A stretch of DNA of 63,868 bases, filler included, from Rhabdomonas costata (taxonomy: Eukaryota), in assembly GCA_019059605.1 (NCBI GenBank). It is 55 parts of 55 records of this genome, joined end to end, with 100 filler letters (N's around TTAATTAATTAA, not from the genome) between each part and the next. Parts side by side here need not be neighbours in the genome. Positions count along the whole stretch, not along the records: positions 54,664 to 55,726 come from JAHMHO010030626.1; 54 more parts are not named here. One strand, written 5' to 3'. The notes beneath the pieces are model-generated. The model was not told the DNA's origin. It searched no databases and saw only the letters and a list, made by a program, of their open reading frames with translations. The position numbers and the translations under genes were made by a program. Shown here piece after piece: positions 6,881 to 55,726 of this stretch. The stretch's first letter is position 1; each line of letters opens with the position of its first letter.

Positions 6881-9701
6881 ACANNNNNNNNNNNNNNNNN
6901 NNNNNNNNNNNNNNNNNNNNNNNNNNNTTAATTAATTAANNNNNNNNNNNNNNNNNNNNNNNNNNNNNNNNNNNNNNNNNNNNGGGATGGGGGGAGGTCA
7001 GCGAGGCCTACGAGTGGTTTCTTGAGGTTCCTGCTGCGTGTGAATGACTGGGAAGATGGCTGGTGACTCGAATCGCGTTGTGACGTTGGAATCCTCGCAT
7101 CCACTTGATGGCCTTAAATAAAATTGGGGGCTCGGGTGAAGAAGTGAGGTGGGTAGGCTGGGTGATTGAGTTGTGTGCTTCCATTCTTCCAGGAATGGGC
7201 GGGGGGCAGGGTGAATGAAGAACGAACGGTATCACTAAAATTCCAGGGCGTCCTCGACCTAAGGGTGTTTTGGCCGCCTCCCCGCACTTGCGAAAAGTCG
7301 CAATGCATGTTCTACCTCCGCGTTTTCTCGTTTTCCGTTTTCCGACGCGCACCTGTGTCTTGAGGCTTTGTGGCTTTTTGGCAGCGGAAATGAGGCACCG
7401 CCGTGAAGGGCTCCCTACCTCGCTCGTTTATGAAGAAGCCCCTTCCACCAAATGGCTTTTCAGTTCATAAAACACGCCTTTTCCTCGTTTTAATCTGCGT
7501 CACCTCAAAAAGTCACAACTCAAAAAATTATGCACTAAAAAACCTGCCAGTTCAGGCTAAAACGGCTCGGAAATAGCATATTTGCATATCGGTTTCGCCT
7601 GTTGGGTTTTGATCTTCCACTGTCACCTCTAACGCGCGGCCTACATATCTGCTTTCTGCAGTGCTGCTTTTGCCCTCTGCCTTTCTCTCAAGCATGCTCT
7701 CCTTTGAGCGATGTTTCGAAAATATTTTTGGTACAAAAGGGTTCTGTGAGCTGGTAGTTAAGGTGGTGAAAACCATTCTTATGTGCACGGTTGAGCAGCA
7801 AACGCTATTCATGAAAAGCCAATGCCGGTCCGGTCTATTTTTGAGGGGAGGGGGCGTTAAACGGATTAACGCCGTTATTCGGTCATGGAGCGGTATATAA
7901 AAAACGAGTTTTGGGCATTCTGTTCTTCTTTCAGGTTGGTCAGTATTGGTGGTAAGCACTCATTCACTTCTGGACCTAAGTCGACAAATGGGATTCGATT
8001 AGTTTAGTGGCCGAAACCAGCCGCGGCGTGACCGGAGCCGGCGGCTGNNNNNNNNNNNNNNNNNNNNNNNNNNNNNNNNNNNNNNNNNNNNTTAATTAAT
8101 TAANNNNNNNNNNNNNNNNNNNNNNNNNNNNNNNNNNNNNNNNNNNNGGGGTGTTGGAGAGAAACAGCTGTCGGGTGCTTGCTCCCAAGCTGGGGGGATG
8201 TGGGCCCATCCTTTCCCTAGAAATGAGCCAGCAGGCTCACCAGATCCTCCCAGCCGATAAAAGCCCCCCCCTCCCCGTGGTAGGTGAGGGTTACGGTGGG
8301 TTGACTTTCGCGCGCCTTTCCTCGTCTCCCATCACACTGCTGTCATGCTCTCATCTCCAAGTCTGTGTGATTTATGTGCACGCCCAAATCCCCGTTGTGG
8401 TGGTCTCCTCCCCCTTTGCCGTCCACCTTTGTGATTCTGTGCGTTTAATATTGTGAGCGGAAATAGAGCTTTTGCGGGTTCTCCACCTCGATCGTTTTTA
8501 TTCCAGGTATTCCAGGCTTAACCAAGCACGCAGTGCTTAAGGGCCGGGGGTGCGACGACCCAAAGCGAGCTCTAAAAAGAAGAAGAAAAAACCAGAAAAA
8601 AAATTTGGGTGAAGTTGTAATTTCCGGCAACCGTGTCCAGGAGTGGCGGTGAATTGTGTTGGTTAGGCGTGCGATTTAGAAAGGAGCAGCTGAAAAAAGC
8701 GGTGCCAGAAAGCTGGAGTCCAACAGTGGTAAAAGCAACCTCTGGCCAGTGCAAACAAAAAAATCTCTTGCATCTGTACTGCCTAGGCAGGAGGCAGGAA
8801 GTGGAGGGATAGACAGAAAGGTGCGGATGACCGTCAAGCACTGACCAGCCGCCAGCCGACGGGCCCTACCGCGGGCATCGGGAGGAGGACACACACGCGT
8901 GTCACATCTCTCCGTCTCATTCCGCAGCAACACTCACATGGCACTTTTCCAGGCGCATTCACACCACGTCGCGATGCAGCCCACAGTCCAAAATGAGGAA
9001 CGAAAAAAAAAGGAGAGGAGAGAAAGGGAATGCAGAACGTGCTCTCCCTCAGCACATCACTGCAAGAACAAGTTGCAAAATTCTTTGTTGGATAGCACTG
9101 GTGACTTCACACAGGGCAGGAAAGCACCGGACAAAAAACATGACGTTGCTTTATCAACGTCACCGTCATAAGCCCACGGCGCACCAGTGCCGACATCGGA
9201 AAAACACCCACNNNNNNNNNNNNNNNNNNNNNNNNNNNNNNNNNNNNNNNNNNNNTTAATTAATTAANNNNNNNNNNNNNNNNNNNNNNNNNNNNNNNNN
9301 NNNNNNNNNNNCGTTCGGTTGCATTTACGGAAATCGACAACGCAGGGCACCGAACAGGGCGAAAACGCCTAATTAATTAATTAATTACTGAAACCGCACA
9401 ACCAGGTCCGGCTGAAACCTCTGGTATCATCATCATCACGGCAGGAATGCAAACGATTAAGAAATCGTTCTATCTGTAGATATAAACCTCCACTCAGCAT
9501 CCCTCATATTCCACTACATATCCAACCGTAAACTCTAAATCAAATGCACCCTCTTTAGGCACAGGGAAAACCATCAACCTGCAATGTTTTCGCAAACCAG
9601 GTTGACGGCGATACCGGGGCGCATAGGGGTACCGTGCTCCGGAGAGAGAAGGGAATAGCGTGTGTCCCCACCAATCCCTTTCCCTCTGCACACTAGCCGC
9701 T

Positions 9702-10088
9702 TTAGAAGGTCACTGCGGGGGCAGTGTACGTCCCAGACAGGCAGGGCGCCACCGCGGTCGCCCCCAGCATCGGGGACGCCGGCACACAGCACGCGTCCAT
9801 CATTGGCAGCACCGTGGGCATGCAGCACGGGTCCGCGTTCAGCAGAGGCGGGCAGCACTCCATCATCATGGGGGCGGGGGCGGGCTTCTTCCTGCCGAAG
9901 CTGAAAGTGGGGAACCGCGGGCGGATCTCCAGGCACACCGTGGCGATCATCAGCAGGTACGCCAGGATGGCAATCACGAAGTACACCACGGCCAGACACC
10001 ACCCGGCACCGCGCCGCCCGCTGACGATCACGCAGGGGAACGCCACGAAGCCCAGGTACACCGTCCAGGGCACCACAGAGGCGCCAAG
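9702..10088 (-). CDS. Terminal exon of a membrane protein with Cys/Pro/Met-rich tail
   Basis: (CT)n tract + CAG acceptor, strong GC3 bias, two hydrophobic segments, then MECCPP/DPCCMP/DACCVP. Confidence 0.65.
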   Translation of the reverse strand, partial: LGASVVPWTVYLGFVAFPCVIVSGRRGAGWCLAVVYFVIAILAYLLMIATVCLEIRPRFPTFSFGRKKPAPAPMMMECCPPLLNADPCCMPTVLPMMDACCVPASPMLGATAVAPCLSGTYTAPAVTF

Positions 10089-10090
10089 CT

Positions 10091-10099
10091 GAGAGAGAG

Positions 10100-10133
<34 letters not shown>

Positions 10134-10200
10134 AGTGAGTGAGTGAGTGAGTGAGTGAGAGTCAGTGAGTGAGTGAGTGAGTGTGTGTGTGTGTGTGTGT
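10091..10200. repeat. Compound microsatellite (GA)n(GT)n(GAGT)n(GT)n
   Basis: Directly visible. Confidence 0.95.
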
Positions 10201-11862
10201 AAGTGAGCTGAAATTCCGAGATGAAGGGGGAAATTGGTATGCTTGCTTTGACGGGAGTTGGAGCGGGGGCAACGTTAAACCATAATTCATGAATCAACCC
10301 TTCACTTAACGAGACAAGCGCTATTTTATTCGTGAGTGCTGCACAAAAACAAGTACACAGGGAAGACAAAAATAACACANNNNNNNNNNNNNNNNNNNNN
10401 NNNNNNNNNNNNNNNNNNNNNNNTTAATTAATTAANNNNNNNNNNNNNNNNNNNNNNNNNNNNNNNNNNNNNNNNNNNNGGGGTGTGGGGGGGATAATGG
10501 GGTGTTGTGATGCTGTTACTCTCTCTCTCTCTCGCTGTCTGTGACAGTGCGGAGCTTGAGGACATTCGGTCGTTTCGGGTTTCCCAACACGACAACTTAG
10601 GCTTTTGTAGCTTCGGGTTCTCAGTCAAAAGAGAGATTCATTCAGAGCCAACCCTGTGGCAATCGTTTGCCCTGCGTAAGACTGACGTGGTGCGCTATCG
10701 TAGTATTCTGCAAACTTGTCTCCGTGGGCTCTGATCGATCAGCGGACATTTTGCAGAACGGCAATCGATCATTCCTCAAGGACCAGAAGTTTGTGGTGTT
10801 TGTGTTTATCGGAACGCCCGCTCAGAAGCCGTCTCAGCAAATGGGCTATGATTTCCCTGCAAATAGGCTGTGATGAGAGAAACTACCAGAAGGACAGCCG
10901 TGGCCTCCCCCACACATGACCCTTTTCCGCCCATAGGCTTGGAAAACTGGCAAAGTGACCTGTTTGGAAAGTGCTGAGGGAGGGGGTTGAGCCGGGAACC
11001 TCAGAAGCACCAGGAAACCACTTGTACTATGCAAAAAGTGGGAAAGTGTGAAAAAAATACTAACTTAATTGGGCTGGTTGCATTCTGTATAATTGTCCAA
11101 TATAGAAACAATGTTGTTGTTTAATTTTCTCCATGTCTGCTTGCATGACGGTTGTCCCTTTGCTGCTTGAGTCCTCCGGCGGTTGTTCTCTCTGTGTATA
11201 TTGTCTTCTTTCCTTGAGAGGAGTTTAAGCGATTCTCTTTGTAAATACGTCTCGTTTTCTCCTGGCTCCATATGTGCGCATGCAGCCTTGACAGCGTTTC
11301 CTTTCTCTTTTCACTTACTGTGTGAACTTTACTTTCCGTTTCCTGCTGCCGCCCACGTCTCTTGTCCTGATTATTGCACACTTTGGAGACCGCTCTATGG
11401 CCGCGCGAGCTGCCCGCCCTTCACCACCGCGGCCCATTTGTTTGAAGTTTATTCTTGACGTTTGTTCTGCCTGCTCCGTTCGGGTTTCCCCGCCGCGCCT
11501 TTTTGGCCTGAATATTGCGTACAGACCGTTCTGCGCCGCGCNNNNNNNNNNNNNNNNNNNNNNNNNNNNNNNNNNNNNNNNNNNNTTAATTAATTAANNN
11601 NNNNNNNNNNNNNNNNNNNNNNNNNNNNNNNNNNNNNNNNNTTCCCCAGTTTTCTCTGCGTGGCCCCCGCCAAAGCAGTGGGAGTAAGTGGGTGCCTGGA
11701 ACGGGTGATGCGTGAACAGCACTCCAGAGATTTAATAGTTTGCATGTGAGGTGTGCCGCGGTTTAAGTTTTTTCTTTTCAAATTGCACATTTTTTTCAGG
11801 CGTGTACCCGTGTCAGTCAGTAAATAGGCCTGAGGCAAGACAGCCCCGGGTGGTGCGTGTAG

Positions 11863-15405: not shown

Positions 15406-17643
15406 CGAGCGCCAGAGAGGAGGTGCCCTTCCTTCTTTCTTATGTTACGGAAGTGCAGAAGGATTGGGTGGCTGTGTTTGAGCTCTTTTTGGGTCGATCT
15501 GTGTGGACGTTTGGGGTGGGATTTGGTTGGTTGTGCCGCCGCTTCCTTCGCTCACCTCCCTCTGTTGGTCGGTCCACCGGCCACACGGCTCAAACGAAGA
15601 ATGTAAGCTGCCGCAGTTACGGAAGCCTCCAAAATTCTGTTCATCTGATTGTGTTTGAAATACTTGAACTGAGGTGTTTGGACCTTCGTTTGCGGGCGGG
15701 CATGCACTGCTCTTTTTCCTGGTGCTTCCTCTCAATTCCAAAAAGTGGTGCTTGGTTTACTTTGTAAAGGCAAAGAAAAAATAAAGCAAAAGTAGAAAAC
15801 AAAATTCTCCCTGCACATCACACTTGTCTTTCTCAGTCCCAAAAATTTCTTCAAGATGTCCTGCCATTTTCGCGACCACTCCCGTCCTACTCTTGTTTTT
15901 CTGACAGCATTTCTTCTTCAAATTGGGTCGTTGGGACTAACAAAACTTCAAGAACATTTATTATGTTTAGTTAATGGACCCCTTTTGTATTTAGAATGTC
16001 GTCAATGTCTCCCTTCGAATGTTTCCAGTTTACAAGCTCAGGTAAAGGGTTTGGTTTTGGAAGGAAAAGGCCATGAAAGGACAGATGGTTCCCGTTTGTT
16101 TCCTTGAATAGTGAATGGATGCCTCAAGGTGAGCGTTTTGTTTTCTACTTTTGCTTTATTTTTTCTTTGCCTTTACAAAGTAAACCAACCCCCCNNNNNN
16201 NNNNNNNNNNNNNNNNNNNNNNNNNNNNNNNNNNNNNNTTAATTAATTAANNNNNNNNNNNNNNNNNNNNNNNNNNNNNNNNNNNNNNNNNNNNTGGTTT
16301 TGTGAACCGCGGGGTCCAGTTGCCGCGACGGAAAAATGGTTTGCCATGTTCTGGATGGTCGTGTGGTTCAAGAACCAGTCCAAAACCTGCCACAGTCACG
16401 GCGCGTCGTCGCACAACAGCACCGCCTCACAGCATAGAGCTCAGAGAAAATGAAGTGGACACCGGCGTTGCCACACATCACCCTCGTGGCCACATTCTCG
16501 TTCATAATATTCCGATCATAAAAAAAATATATGCTCGCCTTTTAAAACATCGACCACAGCCCCTTTCTGCACAGAACAATTCTCGGGGTGATGACAAAAG
16601 CAAACCTGGGCCACAGCGTCAGCGATCAGCTGGGCCGGATCGTTGGAGGGTTCCTTTCCACCAAGACCTAAAGTTTATGAGCGAATGGCCAGCACTCGGT
16701 CGCTATACTACACAGCCGAAAAAGGGAAATGAGAAACTACGATTCGTCCACCGCGGCACTAAGAAGCATATAGATGGGTGTGCGTGTGGGGTGGGGGGAA
16801 GATGTACTCAGGAAAACGAGCAAACCTGAATACTCGTTGCTAATTCTCCATGGATGAATCGCAGCAGAGATTGAATCGAAAGCCACAAAACAGAGCAGTG
16901 CCCAAAGCAAGCGCATTTTGATTGCCAGAAAGGCACCGCACAGTCTAACAGAGACAAAGCACGTGAAAGGAGCAGCGATATTCTGACGTGCATCAACCTG
17001 ACATTGACATCGTTTCTTTTGTTTCGTTCCTTTTTGCAACGTCTGACATCTAGTCTTTTTTTCAAGGCAGTCGAGGGCTGCTGTTGGATCTGGGGAAAAT
17101 GGAGCTATCTTGGTGGATTCGCGGTTCCAAAACAAAAGTCTCGTAAGTGCAAAAGTGAACAGCGTGTGCAATTTTCAGAACGCCGCACTTGACCGTCAAT
17201 GCCTTAAGTGATAAGTTAATATTGCATCCAGTTTCTGCAACGGGGGAAGGAAATTTCCTTGTGCAGAATCGCGGAATACCAAGGGATACGTTAGAAGCGA
17301 GCGGCGTCATACAAATTCTGCAAATTCAGAAGACTCCCAAAGTCCGACACCCCCCACNNNNNNNNNNNNNNNNNNNNNNNNNNNNNNNNNNNNNNNNNNN
17401 NTTAATTAATTAANNNNNNNNNNNNNNNNNNNNNNNNNNNNNNNNNNNNNNNNNNNNGTGTTGGGTGTGGTTGGGTGGTGGGGGGTTGGGTTTGTCTCTA
17501 GCTTAATAAGATCAATACAAGCATCCGAGGATGCCAAAAAGGGCAGAATGGGACCTGTAACCTCCGTCGTAAACCGGTGTTTCTAAATTGCAGGAACGTC
17601 CACTGGGGCTCACTCCCCGAATCCAAACCCAACCCCCCGCTGC

Positions 17644-18083
17644 CTTGACAAACTCCTCGCTCTCAGTAGCACGCGCAGACAGCACCCCCACCACCACAGG
17701 GGCCATCGCGCCCAGGCCCAGCAGCATCCGGAACTGCAGATCCGGACCGATCCTCAGCCCACACAGCAGCATGGCCACCATATATGGGGCCAGCGCGCCA
17801 AATGCCTGAAAGCAGAACACCAGCCCCGTGCGCTTGGCCCGGGTCCAGACATCCGCAGAGGCGCTGGCGCTCTCCGATGCGTGGGTGGCGGACAAGGGGT
17901 AGCACCCCCCGATGCCCACCCCCAGAAGGAAGCGGAACCCTGCAAGCAGCCCGAGCGCGGTGGGGGCGCTGCCCCAGACCCCGGCCGCGGAGGCCACCGC
18001 GGATAAGGCCATCACGGCGGAGGTCACAGCGAAAGCCCGATTGCGGCCAATCAGGTCCCCCAGGTAGCCCATTCCGCACATCC
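17644..18083 (-). CDS. MFS inorganic phosphate transporter (PHO84/Pht1 family), internal exon
   Basis: GYLGDLIGRNRA (MFS motif A), FRFLLGVGIGGCYPLSATHASE (Pht1 signature GGDYPLSATIxSE-like), RMLLGLGA. Confidence 0.92.
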
Positions 18084-18684
18084 CTGAGAAGGAAGGCACC
18101 GCACAGCAAATCGACAACCAGCATCTGATGAGCAGACACTCCGAATTCATCAAAGATAAGAATCTGGGGCTCTTGTGTCGTGATCACATCCATCCTTCAC
18201 TCACCTTTAGGCGATGGGAAATACGTCCACAATGCGTTCTCGGAGGAAATCGAACGAGCAGCTTGCAGCTTTCCATGAACAGGTTCTCAAAAAAGAAAAG
18301 AGACGAGGGCTATGCCAAAGCAGACCCGGGGTCTTTTACAAAAAACACCCACCTCTCACCTCACGCCAAACGGGAGCCAGGCAAATGGTTGGAGGCCGCC
18401 TCAAAAAGGTTTTTGTGGAAAAGCCAATAAGCCTAGGCAGAAGTATGCGCTCACATGCCAAAAATCGATCCCCCATACACCGCGCTCTTCAGGATGGCGT
18501 CCACGTTGCCCCCCCACAACNNNNNNNNNNNNNNNNNNNNNNNNNNNNNNNNNNNNNNNNNNNNTTAATTAATTAANNNNNNNNNNNNNNNNNNNNNNNN
18601 NNNNNNNNNNNNNNNNNNNNTGTGGGTGGTCCCAAACCGGAAAGAGGGCAAGAAGTACACAGTTCTCACCCGGAAACAACTTAC

Positions 18685-44254: not shown

Positions 44255-45259
44255 CAGACCAGTGGAAACTACATTAATGAACGTTTTTCGCACGATGCCC
44301 CACACAATTTACACGATGCCCCAACTACGTAAAAGGCTATAAACATATAGCCCTTTTATACAATGCTGGGCATCGTGAAAAGTGCGGGCAACGTGGTGGG
44401 CATCGCTCAAAACAGGCGGGGCATCGTGTAAATTGTCATGGGCATCGTTTGGGCATCGTGACAAATCGAATTCTTGTCATAAGAAAACGTGATTTTGCAG
44501 AAAATTAGGGTTGAGTGATGACTGTATTTTTCTCATTATGCATATTTTGTGTGGTTTTTTGCCTTCATTACCGCTTTTTCTAAGGTTTTCTTACAGGGCC
44601 TTTCCTGAGCATTTTTCGTCATCTATGGTGATTACCTCTTTCCGTCGGGCGTTGGCTGCTTTCCTTATATTGAGCGGTACTTCGTACAGAACCATCTCCG
44701 CCAAGTGTGGCATCTCTCTCGGCTCCGTTGCCCTCATTAAAAAGAAGCTTTTGCAAAAATCACCTGTTACCAGCTTCCCGAAGCCAGCTGGTCGCCACCG
44801 TAAGCTTGGGGCTCGAGAGAGGCGCCTGCTCATCCGAGCAGTGGGGAAAATGAGGAAAATGAATGTAAATTTTTCGGTTCGCCAACTGGCGAAAGAATGC
44901 GGCCTGCTGTCATGCGTCTCGCTGTCCACCCTATATCGGGAAATGCATCGAGGTGGTCTGCAGTGGAGCAATTTGCGCAGGAAAGGAATTCTATCCGCCC
45001 AAGACCGAAAAAAGCGCCTCGCTTGGTGCCAAAAGCACAAGCATCTCCCAGCTTCGTTTTGGGAAAACGTCGGTCTTTACCTGGATTGCGTGAGCTTTGT
45101 GCACAAAACGAGGCCAAAAGAATCAGGATGTGTCACGAAATCAAAGGCGTGGCTCAAAAAATCTGAAAAGCTTTCTGTGACTGCCAGGGGTCGCCACGAG
45201 CACGAATCCAAGTCAAAGGTTCTTCACCTCGTTGTTGCTATCTCTTATGGTTCTGGGCT
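44255..45259 (+). mobile_element. IS630/Tc1/mariner-superfamily DNA transposon: left end and 5' part of transposase
   Basis: Putative TA|CAG terminus at 44253-44257, subterminal repeats, and an uninterrupted ORF from ATG 44625 with two HTHs, GRHRKL linker, DRKKRLAWC and FWENVGLYLD (first catalytic Asp). Confidence 0.9.
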
Positions 45260-54663: not shown

Positions 54664-54911
54664 CTGATATGTATCTACTAAGAACGAATGCAGTTCACTA
54701 TATCGTTGCTTATTTACAAATTCCATCTGTTCCAATTGGTAGGCAAATTCGTATTCTTGATCTCAATAATAATCTAAGTACAACTCAATGTTTTATTTCA
54801 TCTGCAGACAATGCAATTATAGAATGGCAGTCAGGTGGAAAATTATTCACTGAAAATGGAGCGAATAGGTTACTGCTCTACATAGGAAGCTTTTTCATTC
54901 CTCTAAATTAA
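54664..54911 (+). CDS. C-terminus of a putative viral fibre/structural beta-rich protein
   Basis: Open from contig start; LQIPSVPIGRQIRILDLNNN...GANRLLLYIG resembles fibre-type beta domains; AT-rich contig. Confidence 0.5.
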
Positions 54912-54943
54912 TAAAAGAATTCAAAAAGTCTTTTATTAATTTA
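54904..54943. terminator. Perfect 15-bp AT-rich hairpin between convergent genes
   Basis: taaattaataaaaga (54904-54918), 10-nt loop, tcttttattaattta (54929-54943); overlaps both stop codons. Confidence 0.65.
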
Positions 54944-55127
54944 TCATTCTTTGTATTGTGTTAATTTTTGAATTTAATTTATTCGTTCTATGTTCTAACA
55001 CGAAAATACGATCAATAACTTCTTCAAGCTCTTTATTATCTTTTGGTAAACCAAAACCAATCTCTTTATTATTTACTTCTTTTTGTGTTGGTTCCTCTTC
55101 TTTTGATATACAGCAACATGAACCCAT
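54936..55127 (-). CDS. Small putative viral protein with N-myristoylation/palmitoylation motif and coiled coil
   Basis: MGSCCCIS start; KELEEVIDRIFVLEHRTNKLNSKINTI heptads; TAAATG start context. Confidence 0.7.
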   Translation of the reverse strand: MGSCCCISKEEEPTQKEVNNKEIGFGLPKDNKELEEVIDRIFVLEHRTNKLNSKINTIQRMIN

Positions 55128-55140
55128 TTAGTATTACTTC

Positions 55141-55323
55141 TCATTTTTTTATCGAACATAAATTTAAACAAATGAAAACATTTTTCACATACCATTTTTT
55201 ATCTTCATGAATAATACAACGAAAATATGGTATTTGTCTGTAATCATTTCTATTTAGAAAGTACATTTTAGTATTTTCATCATCAAAGTTCAATATTTGT
55301 TTACAGTGTTCACAACGATTCAT
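55141..55323 (-). CDS. Small putative viral Zn-binding protein
   Basis: CEHC...CIIH...CLNLC; TAAATG start; tightly packed with neighbours. Confidence 0.65.
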   Translation of the reverse strand: MNRCEHCKQILNFDDENTKMYFLNRNDYRQIPYFRCIIHEDKKWYVKNVFICLNLCSIKK

Positions 55324-55347
55324 TTATTATATACTGTTATAATATAA

Positions 55348-55584
55348 ATGAATCTTGAACTAATATACGAAAATGAATTAGATGAAAATGAATTAGTAGA
55401 AATGGAACAAAGCACAAATCAAATAACAGAACAAGACAAAAGATTAAAAGAAATTCTTGAAAAACTTTATGAAGTTGAACATAAAATAGACGATATCTTC
55501 AAAAATTTATGTGAAGTTGGTTCAAAAATTGGAAACATATATACAGTATTAAATGATATTGATAAATGTATTCAATTACGTTAA
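55348..55584 (+). CDS. Small putative viral coiled-coil protein
   Basis: 78 aa with Ile/Leu heptads; TAAATG start; divergent from the previous ORF across 24 bp. Confidence 0.7.
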   Translation: MNLELIYENELDENELVEMEQSTNQITEQDKRLKEILEKLYEVEHKIDDIFKNLCEVGSKIGNIYTVLNDIDKCIQLR

Positions 55585-55608
55585 CAATAAATTTCTCATT
55601 ATATTATA

Positions 55609-55726
55609 ATGGACTACTACACAATGTCAGATTTAGTCGAAAACCTAAAAATAATGATTGCTTTTAAAGAGCAAGAAGCTATGAAATTACAATTAGAATC
55701 TAATAACGATCTAAACACAAACATTA
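55609..55726 (+). CDS. 5' part of a further small putative viral ORF
   Basis: TATAATG start, MDYYTMSDLVENLKIMIAFKEQEAMKLQLE..., open to contig end. Confidence 0.55.

What the first reader, a model, noticed from the sequence alone, without database searches (positions are those of the whole stretch)
54664..55726. AT-rich, gene-dense, intronless contig: fragment of a probably undescribed eukaryotic DNA virus, virophage or Polinton-like element
Seen: far lower GC than every other contig; five ORFs with 13-24 bp gaps on both strands; no introns and no obvious Shine-Dalgarno. It encodes an MGSCCC lipidation motif (implying a eukaryotic host), a small Cys/His protein, coiled-coil proteins and a fibre-like C-terminus. 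Knowledge: this architecture is typical of NCLDV, virophage and PLV genomes. Inference: an endogenous or co-amplified virus of this protist; no hallmark gene is on the fragment, so the class is unresolved.
Basis: partly seen in the sequence, partly recalled or inferred. Interest (0 to 1): 0.8.

Follow-up and report, generated by a model that had tools for sequence, protein, structure and literature searches.

The report
Orphan AT-rich virus fragment, probably phage
A 1-kb, very AT-rich stray contig in a eukaryote's assembly is a piece of an undescribed virus whose only recognisable gene is the tip of a tail fibre shared with a bacteriophage, so it is more likely a phage from an associated microbe than a virus of the eukaryote, though the latter is not excluded.

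Summary
The window is 55 contigs of about 1,063 bp joined by spacers. Contig 54664-55726 has 25.9% GC, against 43.1-58.9% for the other 54. Five ORFs tile it on both strands with gaps of 24, 13, 24 and 24 bp, and they cover more of it than any of 1,000 shuffles.

Four ORFs have no relatives anywhere I searched. The 5'-truncated ORF is homologous to the extreme C-terminus of a 1,778-aa fibre protein: 47% identity, ending at the same residue. That protein lies in a 15.4-kb T7-like podophage contig related to OM43 and SAR11 phages. All other family members are unnamed metagenome fragments.

None of the 4 start codons has a Shine-Dalgarno motif. That also holds for Flavobacterium phage 11b, where only 6 of 65 starts have one, so it does not imply a eukaryotic host. 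Published work shows that virophages and polinton-like viruses also carry phage-derived fibres. The MGSCCC start and TAAATG at 3 of 4 starts therefore keep a eukaryotic-virus reading alive.

Odds: fragment of a tailed virus of a prokaryote about 0.55; virophage, PLV or NCLDV about 0.3. No hallmark gene is on the fragment. Interest is low to moderate.

The parts
54664..54911 (+). 3' end (81 codons, 5'-truncated by the contig end) of a fibre / receptor-binding protein gene; stop TAA followed by a second TAA
   Evidence: HMMER against 1.84 billion representatives: P0002 E 4.2e-10, 49% identity, query 1-79 on residues 177-254 of 255. BLASTP to residues 1700-1776 of the 1,778-aa fibre of podophage contig L001: 37 of 78 identical, E 5e-18. 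Alignments A1 and A3.
54904..54943 (.). Palindrome (18-nt arms, 94% complementary, 4-nt centre) covering the stop codons of the two convergent genes; a terminator-like, A/T-only hairpin
   Evidence: the repeat finder I2. RNA fold -11 kcal/mol, z -6.65, 0 of 200 shuffles as stable. An inverted repeat of this quality occurs in 2 of 300 shuffles. It is not a canonical G+C-rich intrinsic terminator: 0 such sites found.
54936..55127 (-). ORF63, a 63-aa protein starting MGSCCC, otherwise charged and helical-looking; no relatives found
   Evidence: no Pfam family; only weak PHROG matches, best E 0.006; no IMG/VR relative
55141..55323 (-). ORF60, a 60-aa Cys/His protein (CxxC ... CxxH ... CxxxC), a putative small zinc-binding protein; stop TGA
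   Evidence: no Pfam or PHROG match; no homologue among 5.8 billion proteins of 33-105 aa; none in IMG/VR or GTDB genomes; PDB best E 0.33; ESM atlas best 0.88 with low recognition
55317..55354 (.). Palindrome (17-nt arms, 88% complementary, 4-nt centre) spanning the 24-bp divergent gap and the first 7 bases of both ORF60 and ORF78; putative shared promoter/operator
   Evidence: the repeat finder I3. DNA fold -9.7 kcal/mol, z -5.21, 0 of 200 shuffles as stable. 0 of 300 shuffles contain two separate inverted repeats of this quality.
55348..55584 (+). ORF78, a 78-aa acidic, helical-looking protein; no relatives found
   Evidence: 14 Pfam matches, all below their curated cut-offs (best E 0.0083); 19 weak PHROG matches (best E 4e-4, function unknown); no relative in IMG/VR or among 5.8 billion proteins
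55609..55726 (+). ORF5, the first 39 codons of a gene cut by the contig end
   Evidence: no Pfam or PHROG match; too short for the IMG/VR scan

Best explanation
The contig is a fragment of the genome of an uncultured tailed virus (Caudoviricetes-type phage or prophage) of a low-GC prokaryote whose genes are translated without Shine-Dalgarno sites, as in Bacteroidota. It would have been co-sequenced with the eukaryote as an associated or contaminating microbe. It holds the last 81 codons of a modular tail-fibre gene, namely the receptor-binding tip that would attach the virion to the host surface. An A/T hairpin follows that would end transcription from both sides. Then come two small divergent transcription units: ORF60 then ORF63 leftward, and ORF78 then ORF5 rightward. 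Both leave a palindrome that overlaps both start codons and probably serves as a shared promoter/operator for a dimeric regulator. Shown: dense coding, the fibre-tip homology, the phage nature of the one relative with genomic context, both palindromes, and the lack of SD. Inferred: receptor binding, termination, operator function, the type of host, and that the source is a prokaryotic virus at all.
For: (1) The only ORF with relatives matches the extreme C-terminus of a fibre family: 47% identity over 78 aa, ending at the same residue. The single member with genomic context (L001, 15,425 bp) is a podophage structural block. It has a T7 capsid-assembly protein (PF05396), a capsid protein (PF19821, phrog_3437) and tail proteins phrog_394 and phrog_376. 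All its genes are on one strand and 9 of 9 starts have SD. Its capsid and tail proteins match Methylophilales, Pelagibacter and Vibrio phages.
(2) The family has a conserved junction followed by alternative tip modules, the usual pattern of phage receptor-binding proteins.
(3) The ESM atlas places the ORF nearest to clusters of viral hypothetical proteins. The three shown score 0.95 and are 55-92% viral, with Uroviricota the commonest phylum.
(4) Runs of 40-100-aa ORFs with short gaps and strand switches are seen in Pelagibacter phage HTVC034P, and runs of such small ORFs with short gaps in Flavobacterium phage 11b.
(5) 0 of 4 SD-like starts has probability 0.68 at the rate seen in Flavobacterium phage 11b (6 of 65), whose start contexts are likewise pure A/T.
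(6) The mimivirus-type early promoter core AAAATTGA is absent from both strands.
Against: No phage hallmark gene (terminase, portal, HK97 capsid) is on the fragment. There is no match in 50,697 phage records by blastn or tblastn, none in GTDB genomes, and only one IMG/VR contig.
The phages nearest to L001 use SD: 9 of 9 starts in L001 and 39 of 62 in HTVC034P. At the latter rate, 0 of 4 has probability 0.019. The host would therefore differ in kind from that of the only relative.
ORF63 begins MGSCCC, which fits the eukaryotic N-myristoylation/palmitoylation pattern (pattern recalled, not tested).
Three of 4 starts read TAAATG, while only 5 of the 46 ATGs on both strands do (hypergeometric p 0.0025). 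In the two phages used as controls, TAA precedes 3 of 62 and 2 of 65 starts.
The hairpin is A/T-only and not a canonical intrinsic terminator.
Sigma-70-like sites are no more frequent than in shuffles: 8 against 7.9 +/- 2.7.
Phage-like fibres, and phage-virophage transfer of them, are reported for PLVs and virophages.
25.9% GC is low for a phage: the phage sequences examined here have 30.6-35.9%.
Confidence: 0.55

Rival explanations
1. The contig is a fragment of a small eukaryotic dsDNA virus or a giant virus (virophage, polinton-like virus or AT-rich NCLDV), free or integrated in this eukaryote. Its fibre tip would have been acquired from phages. Its genes would be transcribed from very short A/T promoters next to each start, and ORF63 would be anchored to membranes by N-terminal acylation.
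For: None of 4 starts has SD. The MGSCCC N-terminus is present. TAAATG lies at 3 of 4 starts (p 0.0025); papers on poxvirus late promoters hold that word (search listing only). An A/T hairpin covers both convergent stops; it resembles the mimivirus 'hairpin rule', which is recalled and not checked. [quoted passage not shown] DSLV2-type virophage tail proteins cluster with phage proteins, which the authors read as multiple transfers (PMC12724248, abstract and sections 23 and 25).
Against: No eukaryotic-virus hallmark or any homologue in such a virus was found. The only relative with context is a bacteriophage that uses SD. AAAATTGA occurs 0 times, and no TCTA lies in the 40 nt before any of the 4 starts (read by eye). 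The three-tail-gene architecture that paper surveyed was kept by only 44 of 3,029 virophages. Three complete ORFs of 60-78 aa in a row, and 13-24 bp gaps, are shorter than is typical of NCLDVs (recalled). T at -3 in TAAATG is a poor context for scanning ribosomes (recalled). The MGSCCC motif is a single post-hoc observation.
Confidence: 0.3
2. The contig is a piece of an AT-rich cellular or organellar genome, and its ORFs are fast-evolving orphans. Candidates are a mitochondrion, a plastid, a nucleomorph, an AT-rich endosymbiont, or a second AT-rich eukaryote.
For: Low GC, dense small ORFs and no SD would fit organelle or nucleomorph DNA (recalled general knowledge). Four of 5 ORFs have no relatives.
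Against: Rfam found no RNA-family match anywhere in the window at gathering threshold. No ORF matches any organellar or housekeeping family. The one ORF with relatives is a virion fibre tip. The standard code with TAA, TAATAA and TGA stops fits cleanly. An organelle would be expected at high coverage in long contigs (inference).
Confidence: 0.1

Closest known systems
C-terminal tip module of the 1,778-aa fibre protein of IMG/VR podophage contig L001 (IMGVR_UViG_3300021349_000018), and its unnamed metagenomic relatives P0002, P0007, P0009, P0010, P0012 and P0013
   Same: The match is co-linear and ends at the same C-terminal residue. Identity is 47% to L001, 49% to P0002 and 40-42% to P0007 and P0009. 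The motifs G-x-x-IR-x-x-D, NLSTTQ and N-R-x-LL are shared.
   Different: The target has 25.9% GC and no SD. L001 has 35.9% GC and SD at 9 of 9 starts. The neighbouring genes are unrelated: L001 continues on the same strand with large structural genes, whereas the target turns to small ORFs on the opposite strand. Only 81 residues of the target protein are present.
Phages of Bacteroidota, for example Flavobacterium phage 11b (NC_006356)
   Same: Low GC (30.6%), 6 of 65 starts with an SD-like motif, pure A/T start contexts, and many 40-80-aa ORFs with short gaps.
   Different: No sequence similarity was found. Its genes are all on one strand. TAA precedes only 2 of 65 starts, against 3 of 4 here.
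Virophages and polinton-like viruses with phage-derived fibre or tail proteins (DSLV2 lineage, PgVV-14T, cryptophyte and Tetraselmis PLVs)
   Same: Small AT-rich dsDNA genomes of eukaryote-associated viruses that encode phage-like fibre proteins, with reported phage-virophage gene transfer.
   Different: No capsid, ATPase, protease or polymerase gene is on the fragment. The reported promoter core AAAATTGA is absent. I did not compare sequences with any of these viruses, because none was reachable with the tools. The supplements of these papers were not seen.
Poxvirus-type late promoter/initiator TAAATG
   Same: The hexamer overlaps the start codon of 3 of 4 genes.
   Different: No ORF matches any poxvirus family in Pfam. 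A fibre gene is foreign to poxviruses (recalled). With only 4 genes in a 74% A+T sequence, and some shared trimer before ATG being roughly a 1-in-50 event by my own estimate, the signal is weak.

Membership tests
Unnamed metagenomic tail-fibre tip family (P0002, P0007, P0011 C-terminus) | Significant co-linear similarity over the C-terminal module, ending at the protein's C-terminus | tested here: met
   E 4.2e-10 against 1.84 billion proteins. 37 of 78 identical to residues 1700-1776 of 1,778. Alignment A3 has 4 invariant columns across 8 sequences. Only the last 81 residues can be judged.
Caudoviricetes (tailed phages) | HK97-fold major capsid protein, portal and large terminase on the same genome | not testable with these tools
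None of the 5 ORFs matches such a family.
Caudoviricetes (tailed phages) | Virion fibre or receptor-binding protein homologous to that of a bona fide tailed phage | tested here: met
   This is not exclusive to phages, since PLVs and virophages are reported to carry phage-like fibres.
Virophages / polinton-like viruses (Preplasmiviricota) | Double jelly-roll major capsid, penton protein, A32/FtsK-type packaging ATPase, and a cysteine protease or pPolB/integrase | tested here: not met
   None of the 5 ORFs matches any such Pfam family at E up to 1. This holds for the fragment only; the rest of the genome is unknown.
Mimivirus-type NCLDVs and their virophages | Early promoter core AAAATTGA, or late TCTA, upstream of genes | tested here: not met
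   AAAATTGA occurs 0 times on either strand. No TCTA lies in the 40 nt before any of the 4 starts. AAAATTGA is taken; TCTA is recalled.
Poxvirus-like late genes | TAAATG initiator overlapping the start codon | tested here: inconclusive
   3 of 4 starts; 5 TAAATG among 46 ATG; p 0.0025 before allowing for the choice of motif. No poxvirus protein family matched.
Eukaryotic N-myristoylated / palmitoylated proteins | Gly2 with a small residue at position 6 and nearby Cys; modification by host N-myristoyltransferase | not testable with these tools
   The sequence MGSCCCI fits the recalled pattern. The modification and a eukaryotic setting are untested.
Bacterial intrinsic terminator | G+C-rich stem followed by a T run | tested here: not met
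   0 sites by the consensus scan. The hairpin at 54904-54943 is A/T-rich, at -11 kcal/mol.

The most novel reading that the evidence does not exclude
The contig belongs to a virophage or polinton-like virus, or to a small AT-rich NCLDV-like element, of this eukaryote. It would have recently taken a receptor-binding fibre tip from phages of planktonic bacteria. Like the DSLV2 model, it might use the tip to ride on bacteria into a bacterivorous host. It would express its genes from pox-like TAAATG initiators and anchor a 63-aa protein to membranes by dual acylation.
Probability: 0.25. Interest if true: 0.5.

Novelty: new member of a known kind. Interest (0 to 1): 0.25.

Why it matters
The practical value is for decontamination and annotation. 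A 1-kb contig of 25.9% GC in a eukaryotic assembly of about 50% GC should not be reported as an endogenous virus of the eukaryote on composition and gene packing alone. The one gene that can be placed points to the phage world, and a phage of a non-SD host reproduces the 'eukaryote-like' lack of ribosome-binding sites.

The work also defines a small, so far unnamed family of modular fibre tips known only from metagenomes. One member is anchored in an OM43/SAR11-type podophage.

If the eukaryotic-virus reading proved right, this would be one more case of fibre exchange between phages and viruses of protists. That topic is already in print.

Tried and rejected
- Whole-genome binning: no genome is held.
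- Earlier findings of this scan: nothing in 4 look-ups.
- Rfam on the whole window: 0 matches.
- Phage collection: blastn with the contig and tblastn with P0001 and P0002 gave no match.
- IMG/VR scans with each of the four larger ORFs alone: none. ORF5 was too short.
- GTDB genome scans with A1 and ORF60: none.
- Word-indexed protein search: none for ORF60 or ORF78.
- Profile search with A2: 12 hits, all unnamed metagenome proteins on contigs of at most 2,296 bp.
- PDB sequence searches with ORF60, A2 and the 1,778-aa fibre: nothing below E 0.27.
- Five of the 8 HMMER hits for P0001 are Ig, Fn3 or cadherin repeat proteins. I set them aside as repeat-inflated, so only 3 of 8 count as family.
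- Two AlphaFold runs on the fibre tip gave mean pLDDT 33.9 and 45.4. I therefore ran no fold search, and the fold is unknown beyond 'mostly beta strands'.
- Sigma-70 promoter and terminator scan: no enrichment.
- Bacteroidota-type TAnnTTTG: 0 in the contig. It occurs at 1.4-2.1 per kb in all three comparison sequences whatever the host, so its absence says little.
- Alternative genetic codes were considered and dropped, because the standard code gives clean double stops.
- Kinetoplast minicircle, nucleomorph and organelle readings were considered and ranked low (see rivals).
- The identity of the eukaryote was not established. The other contigs show only microsatellites, a Tc1-type HTH and a sugar-transporter fragment.

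Full report
**What the window is.**
The 63,868-base window is not one locus. It is 55 contigs of 1,056-1,068 bp joined by N50-TTAATTAATTAA-N50 spacers. The finding is exactly one of these contigs, 54664-55726 (1,063 bp). Nothing outside these 1,063 bases that belongs to the same replicon could therefore be examined.

**The observation.**
The contig has 25.9% GC; the other 54 contigs have 43.1-58.9%. The ORFs are as follows:
- a 5'-open frame at 54666-54911 (+), 81 codons, kept as P0001;
- ORF63 at 54936-55127 (-);
- ORF60 at 55141-55323 (-);
- ORF78 at 55348-55584 (+);
- a 3'-open frame at 55609-55726 (+).

The gaps between them are 24, 13, 24 and 24 bp. Non-overlapping frames of at least 39 codons cover 981 of 1,063 bases, against 529 +/- 145 (maximum 900) in 1,000 dinucleotide shuffles. 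Six frames reach 60 codons, against a mean of 0.87 and a maximum of 5. Coding GC is 23-33%, GC3 is 11-33% and intergenic GC is 14%. The description is correct and is more than chance would give.

The other contigs look like eukaryotic, mostly non-coding DNA. They carry dinucleotide microsatellites, a Tc1-type transposase HTH and a sugar-transporter fragment. I could not name the organism.

**Signals at the gene boundaries.**
Two palindromes sit exactly at gene boundaries.
- 54904-54943 has 18-nt arms, 94% complementary, and covers the stop codons of the two convergent genes. As RNA it folds at -11 kcal/mol (z -6.65).
- 55317-55354 has 17-nt arms, 88% complementary. It spans the 24-bp divergent gap and the first seven bases of ORF60 and ORF78 (z -5.21 as DNA).

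Only 2 of 300 shuffles hold one inverted repeat of this quality, and none holds two.

No start has an SD-like motif at -18..-4 (0 of 4). Three of 4 starts read TAAATG, whereas only 5 of the 46 ATGs on both strands do (p 0.0025 before allowing for the choice of motif). Sigma-70-like sites are not enriched (8 against 7.9 +/- 2.7) and there is no canonical terminator.

**Searches for relatives.**
Four ORFs are orphans.
- Pfam gave nothing above its cut-offs.
- Single-protein IMG/VR scans found nothing.
- Word-indexed searches with ORF60 and ORF78 found nothing.
- A GTDB scan, a PDB search and the ESM atlas found nothing useful for ORF60.

P0001 is different. HMMER against 1.84 billion representatives returned 8 proteins at E <= 0.001. 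Three are true relatives: P0002 (E 4.2e-10, 49% identity, query 1-79 on residues 177-254 of 255), P0007 and P0009. The other five are Ig, Fn3 or cadherin repeat proteins, which I set aside as repeat-inflated.

**The one relative with context.**
A profile scan found a single locus in IMG/VR, and the identical contig in the JGI metagenomes (L001 = L002, 15,425 bp, 35.9% GC). P0001 aligns to residues 1700-1776 of a 1,778-aa protein there (37 of 78 identical, E 5e-18). P0002 aligns to its last 293 residues (59% identity).

L001 is a podophage structural block:
- a T7-type capsid-assembly protein (PF05396);
- a capsid protein (PF19821, phrog_3437);
- two tail proteins (phrog_394, phrog_376);
- all genes on one strand, with SD before 9 of 9 starts.

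Its capsid protein is closest to that of Methylophilales phage MEP301 (34.8%), with further matches to Pelagibacter and Vibrio phages. Its phrog_376-type tail protein matches the proteins annotated as tail tubular protein B in Pelagibacter and Methylophilales phages, among 125 records.

The fibre family shows a conserved junction after which at least two unrelated tip modules follow. This is the usual modular pattern of phage receptor-binding proteins (general knowledge).

**Does the lack of SD point to a eukaryote?**
I applied the same motif test to three phage sequences:
- L001: 9 of 9 starts;
- Pelagibacter phage HTVC034P (32.6% GC): 39 of 62;
- Flavobacterium phage 11b (30.6% GC): 6 of 65, with pure A/T start contexts much like those here and many 40-80-aa ORFs with short gaps.

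Zero of 4 has probability 0.019 at the pelagiphage rate but 0.68 at the flavobacterial-phage rate. The missing SD therefore argues against a host like L001's, but not against a phage as such.

**Does the fibre homology exclude a eukaryotic virus?**
No. The papers I consulted say the following.
- The PgVV-14T preprint reports a virion protein with T4 gp36-like repeats. [quoted passage not shown]
- A Tetraselmis PLV preprint lists a conserved tail-fibre protein (passages).
- PMC12724248 reports virophage tail proteins that cluster with phage proteins, which it reads as multiple phage-virophage transfers. It also reports that 44 of 3,029 virophages keep that three-gene tail architecture (abstract and sections 23 and 25).

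I did not see the supplements of any of these papers.

**Weighing the two readings.**
For a prokaryotic tailed virus:
- the only homology, at 47% identity, is to a real phage;
- the family architecture is modular;
- the small-ORF run can be matched in phages;
- the atlas neighbours are phage-dominated;
- AAAATTGA is absent.

For a eukaryotic virus:
- the MGSCCC N-terminus fits the recalled N-myristoylation/palmitoylation pattern;
- TAAATG lies at 3 of 4 starts (poxvirus late-promoter literature, listing only);
- the convergent-gene hairpin is A/T-only;
- the strand switches twice across five genes;
- the GC is very low.

Each item in the second group is a single observation in 1 kb of 74% A+T sequence, made after the fact. 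I put the phage reading at about 0.55, a virophage, PLV or NCLDV at about 0.3, and AT-rich cellular or organellar DNA at about 0.1.

**How it most likely works.**
- Shown: the fragment carries the end of a virion fibre gene, a strong hairpin over the convergent stops, and two divergent pairs of small genes that leave a palindrome.
- Inferred: the tip binds a surface receptor. The hairpin ends transcripts from both sides. The palindrome is a shared promoter/operator bound by a dimeric regulator. ORF60 binds zinc through CxxC...CxxH. Translation starts without SD pairing.
- Unknown: the fold of the tip. Two AlphaFold runs failed, with pLDDT 33.9 and 45.4, so no fold search was made.

**Verdict.**
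This is a real, foreign, viral and undescribed fragment. It is a new member of a known kind (an uncultured virus with a modular fibre), and most likely a phage from an associated microbe. The eukaryotic-virus interpretation is not refuted, but it has lost its two main supports. Interest is 0.25.

Noticed in passing
phages collection, HQ332136.1 / NC_023841.1 (hits H2, H3): 'Dunaliella viridis virus SI2' (37,328 bp, host written as a green alga) has a 'major head protein' 34.1% identical over 92% of the L001 podophage capsid protein.
   Followed up: no
L001:2659-7992 and proteins P0014, P0016, P0019, P0020: The fibre family has a conserved junction peptide after which at least two unrelated tip modules follow: the P0002/P0011 type and the P0014/P0016/P0019/P0020 type. 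This suggests tip swapping at a fixed exchange point.
   Followed up: partly
L001:6001-8000: The 3' part of the L001 fibre gene has 29.6-31.7% GC, against 35.9% for the whole contig. This could reflect acquisition from a lower-GC source or merely an Asn/Ser/Thr/Tyr-rich composition.
   Followed up: no
window 9373-9384: The 12-base spacer word TTAATTAATTAA also occurs once inside real sequence, in contig 9312-10379, which at 1,068 bp is the longest in the window.
   Followed up: no
window 44493-45257 and 17515-18183: There is a Tc1-type transposase HTH (PF01498, E 6e-7, 30.1 bits, just under Pfam's 31.5-bit cut-off) and a sugar-transporter fragment (PF00083, E 1.7e-9) on two of the approximately 50% GC contigs. 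Several contigs hold dinucleotide microsatellites. These are consistent with a eukaryotic host genome, which I did not identify.
   Followed up: partly
window 54958-55131 (+) and 55043-55210 (+): Frames of 57 and 55 codons run antisense to ORF63 and ORF60. I take them as shadows of the sense ORFs, but this was not tested.
   Followed up: no
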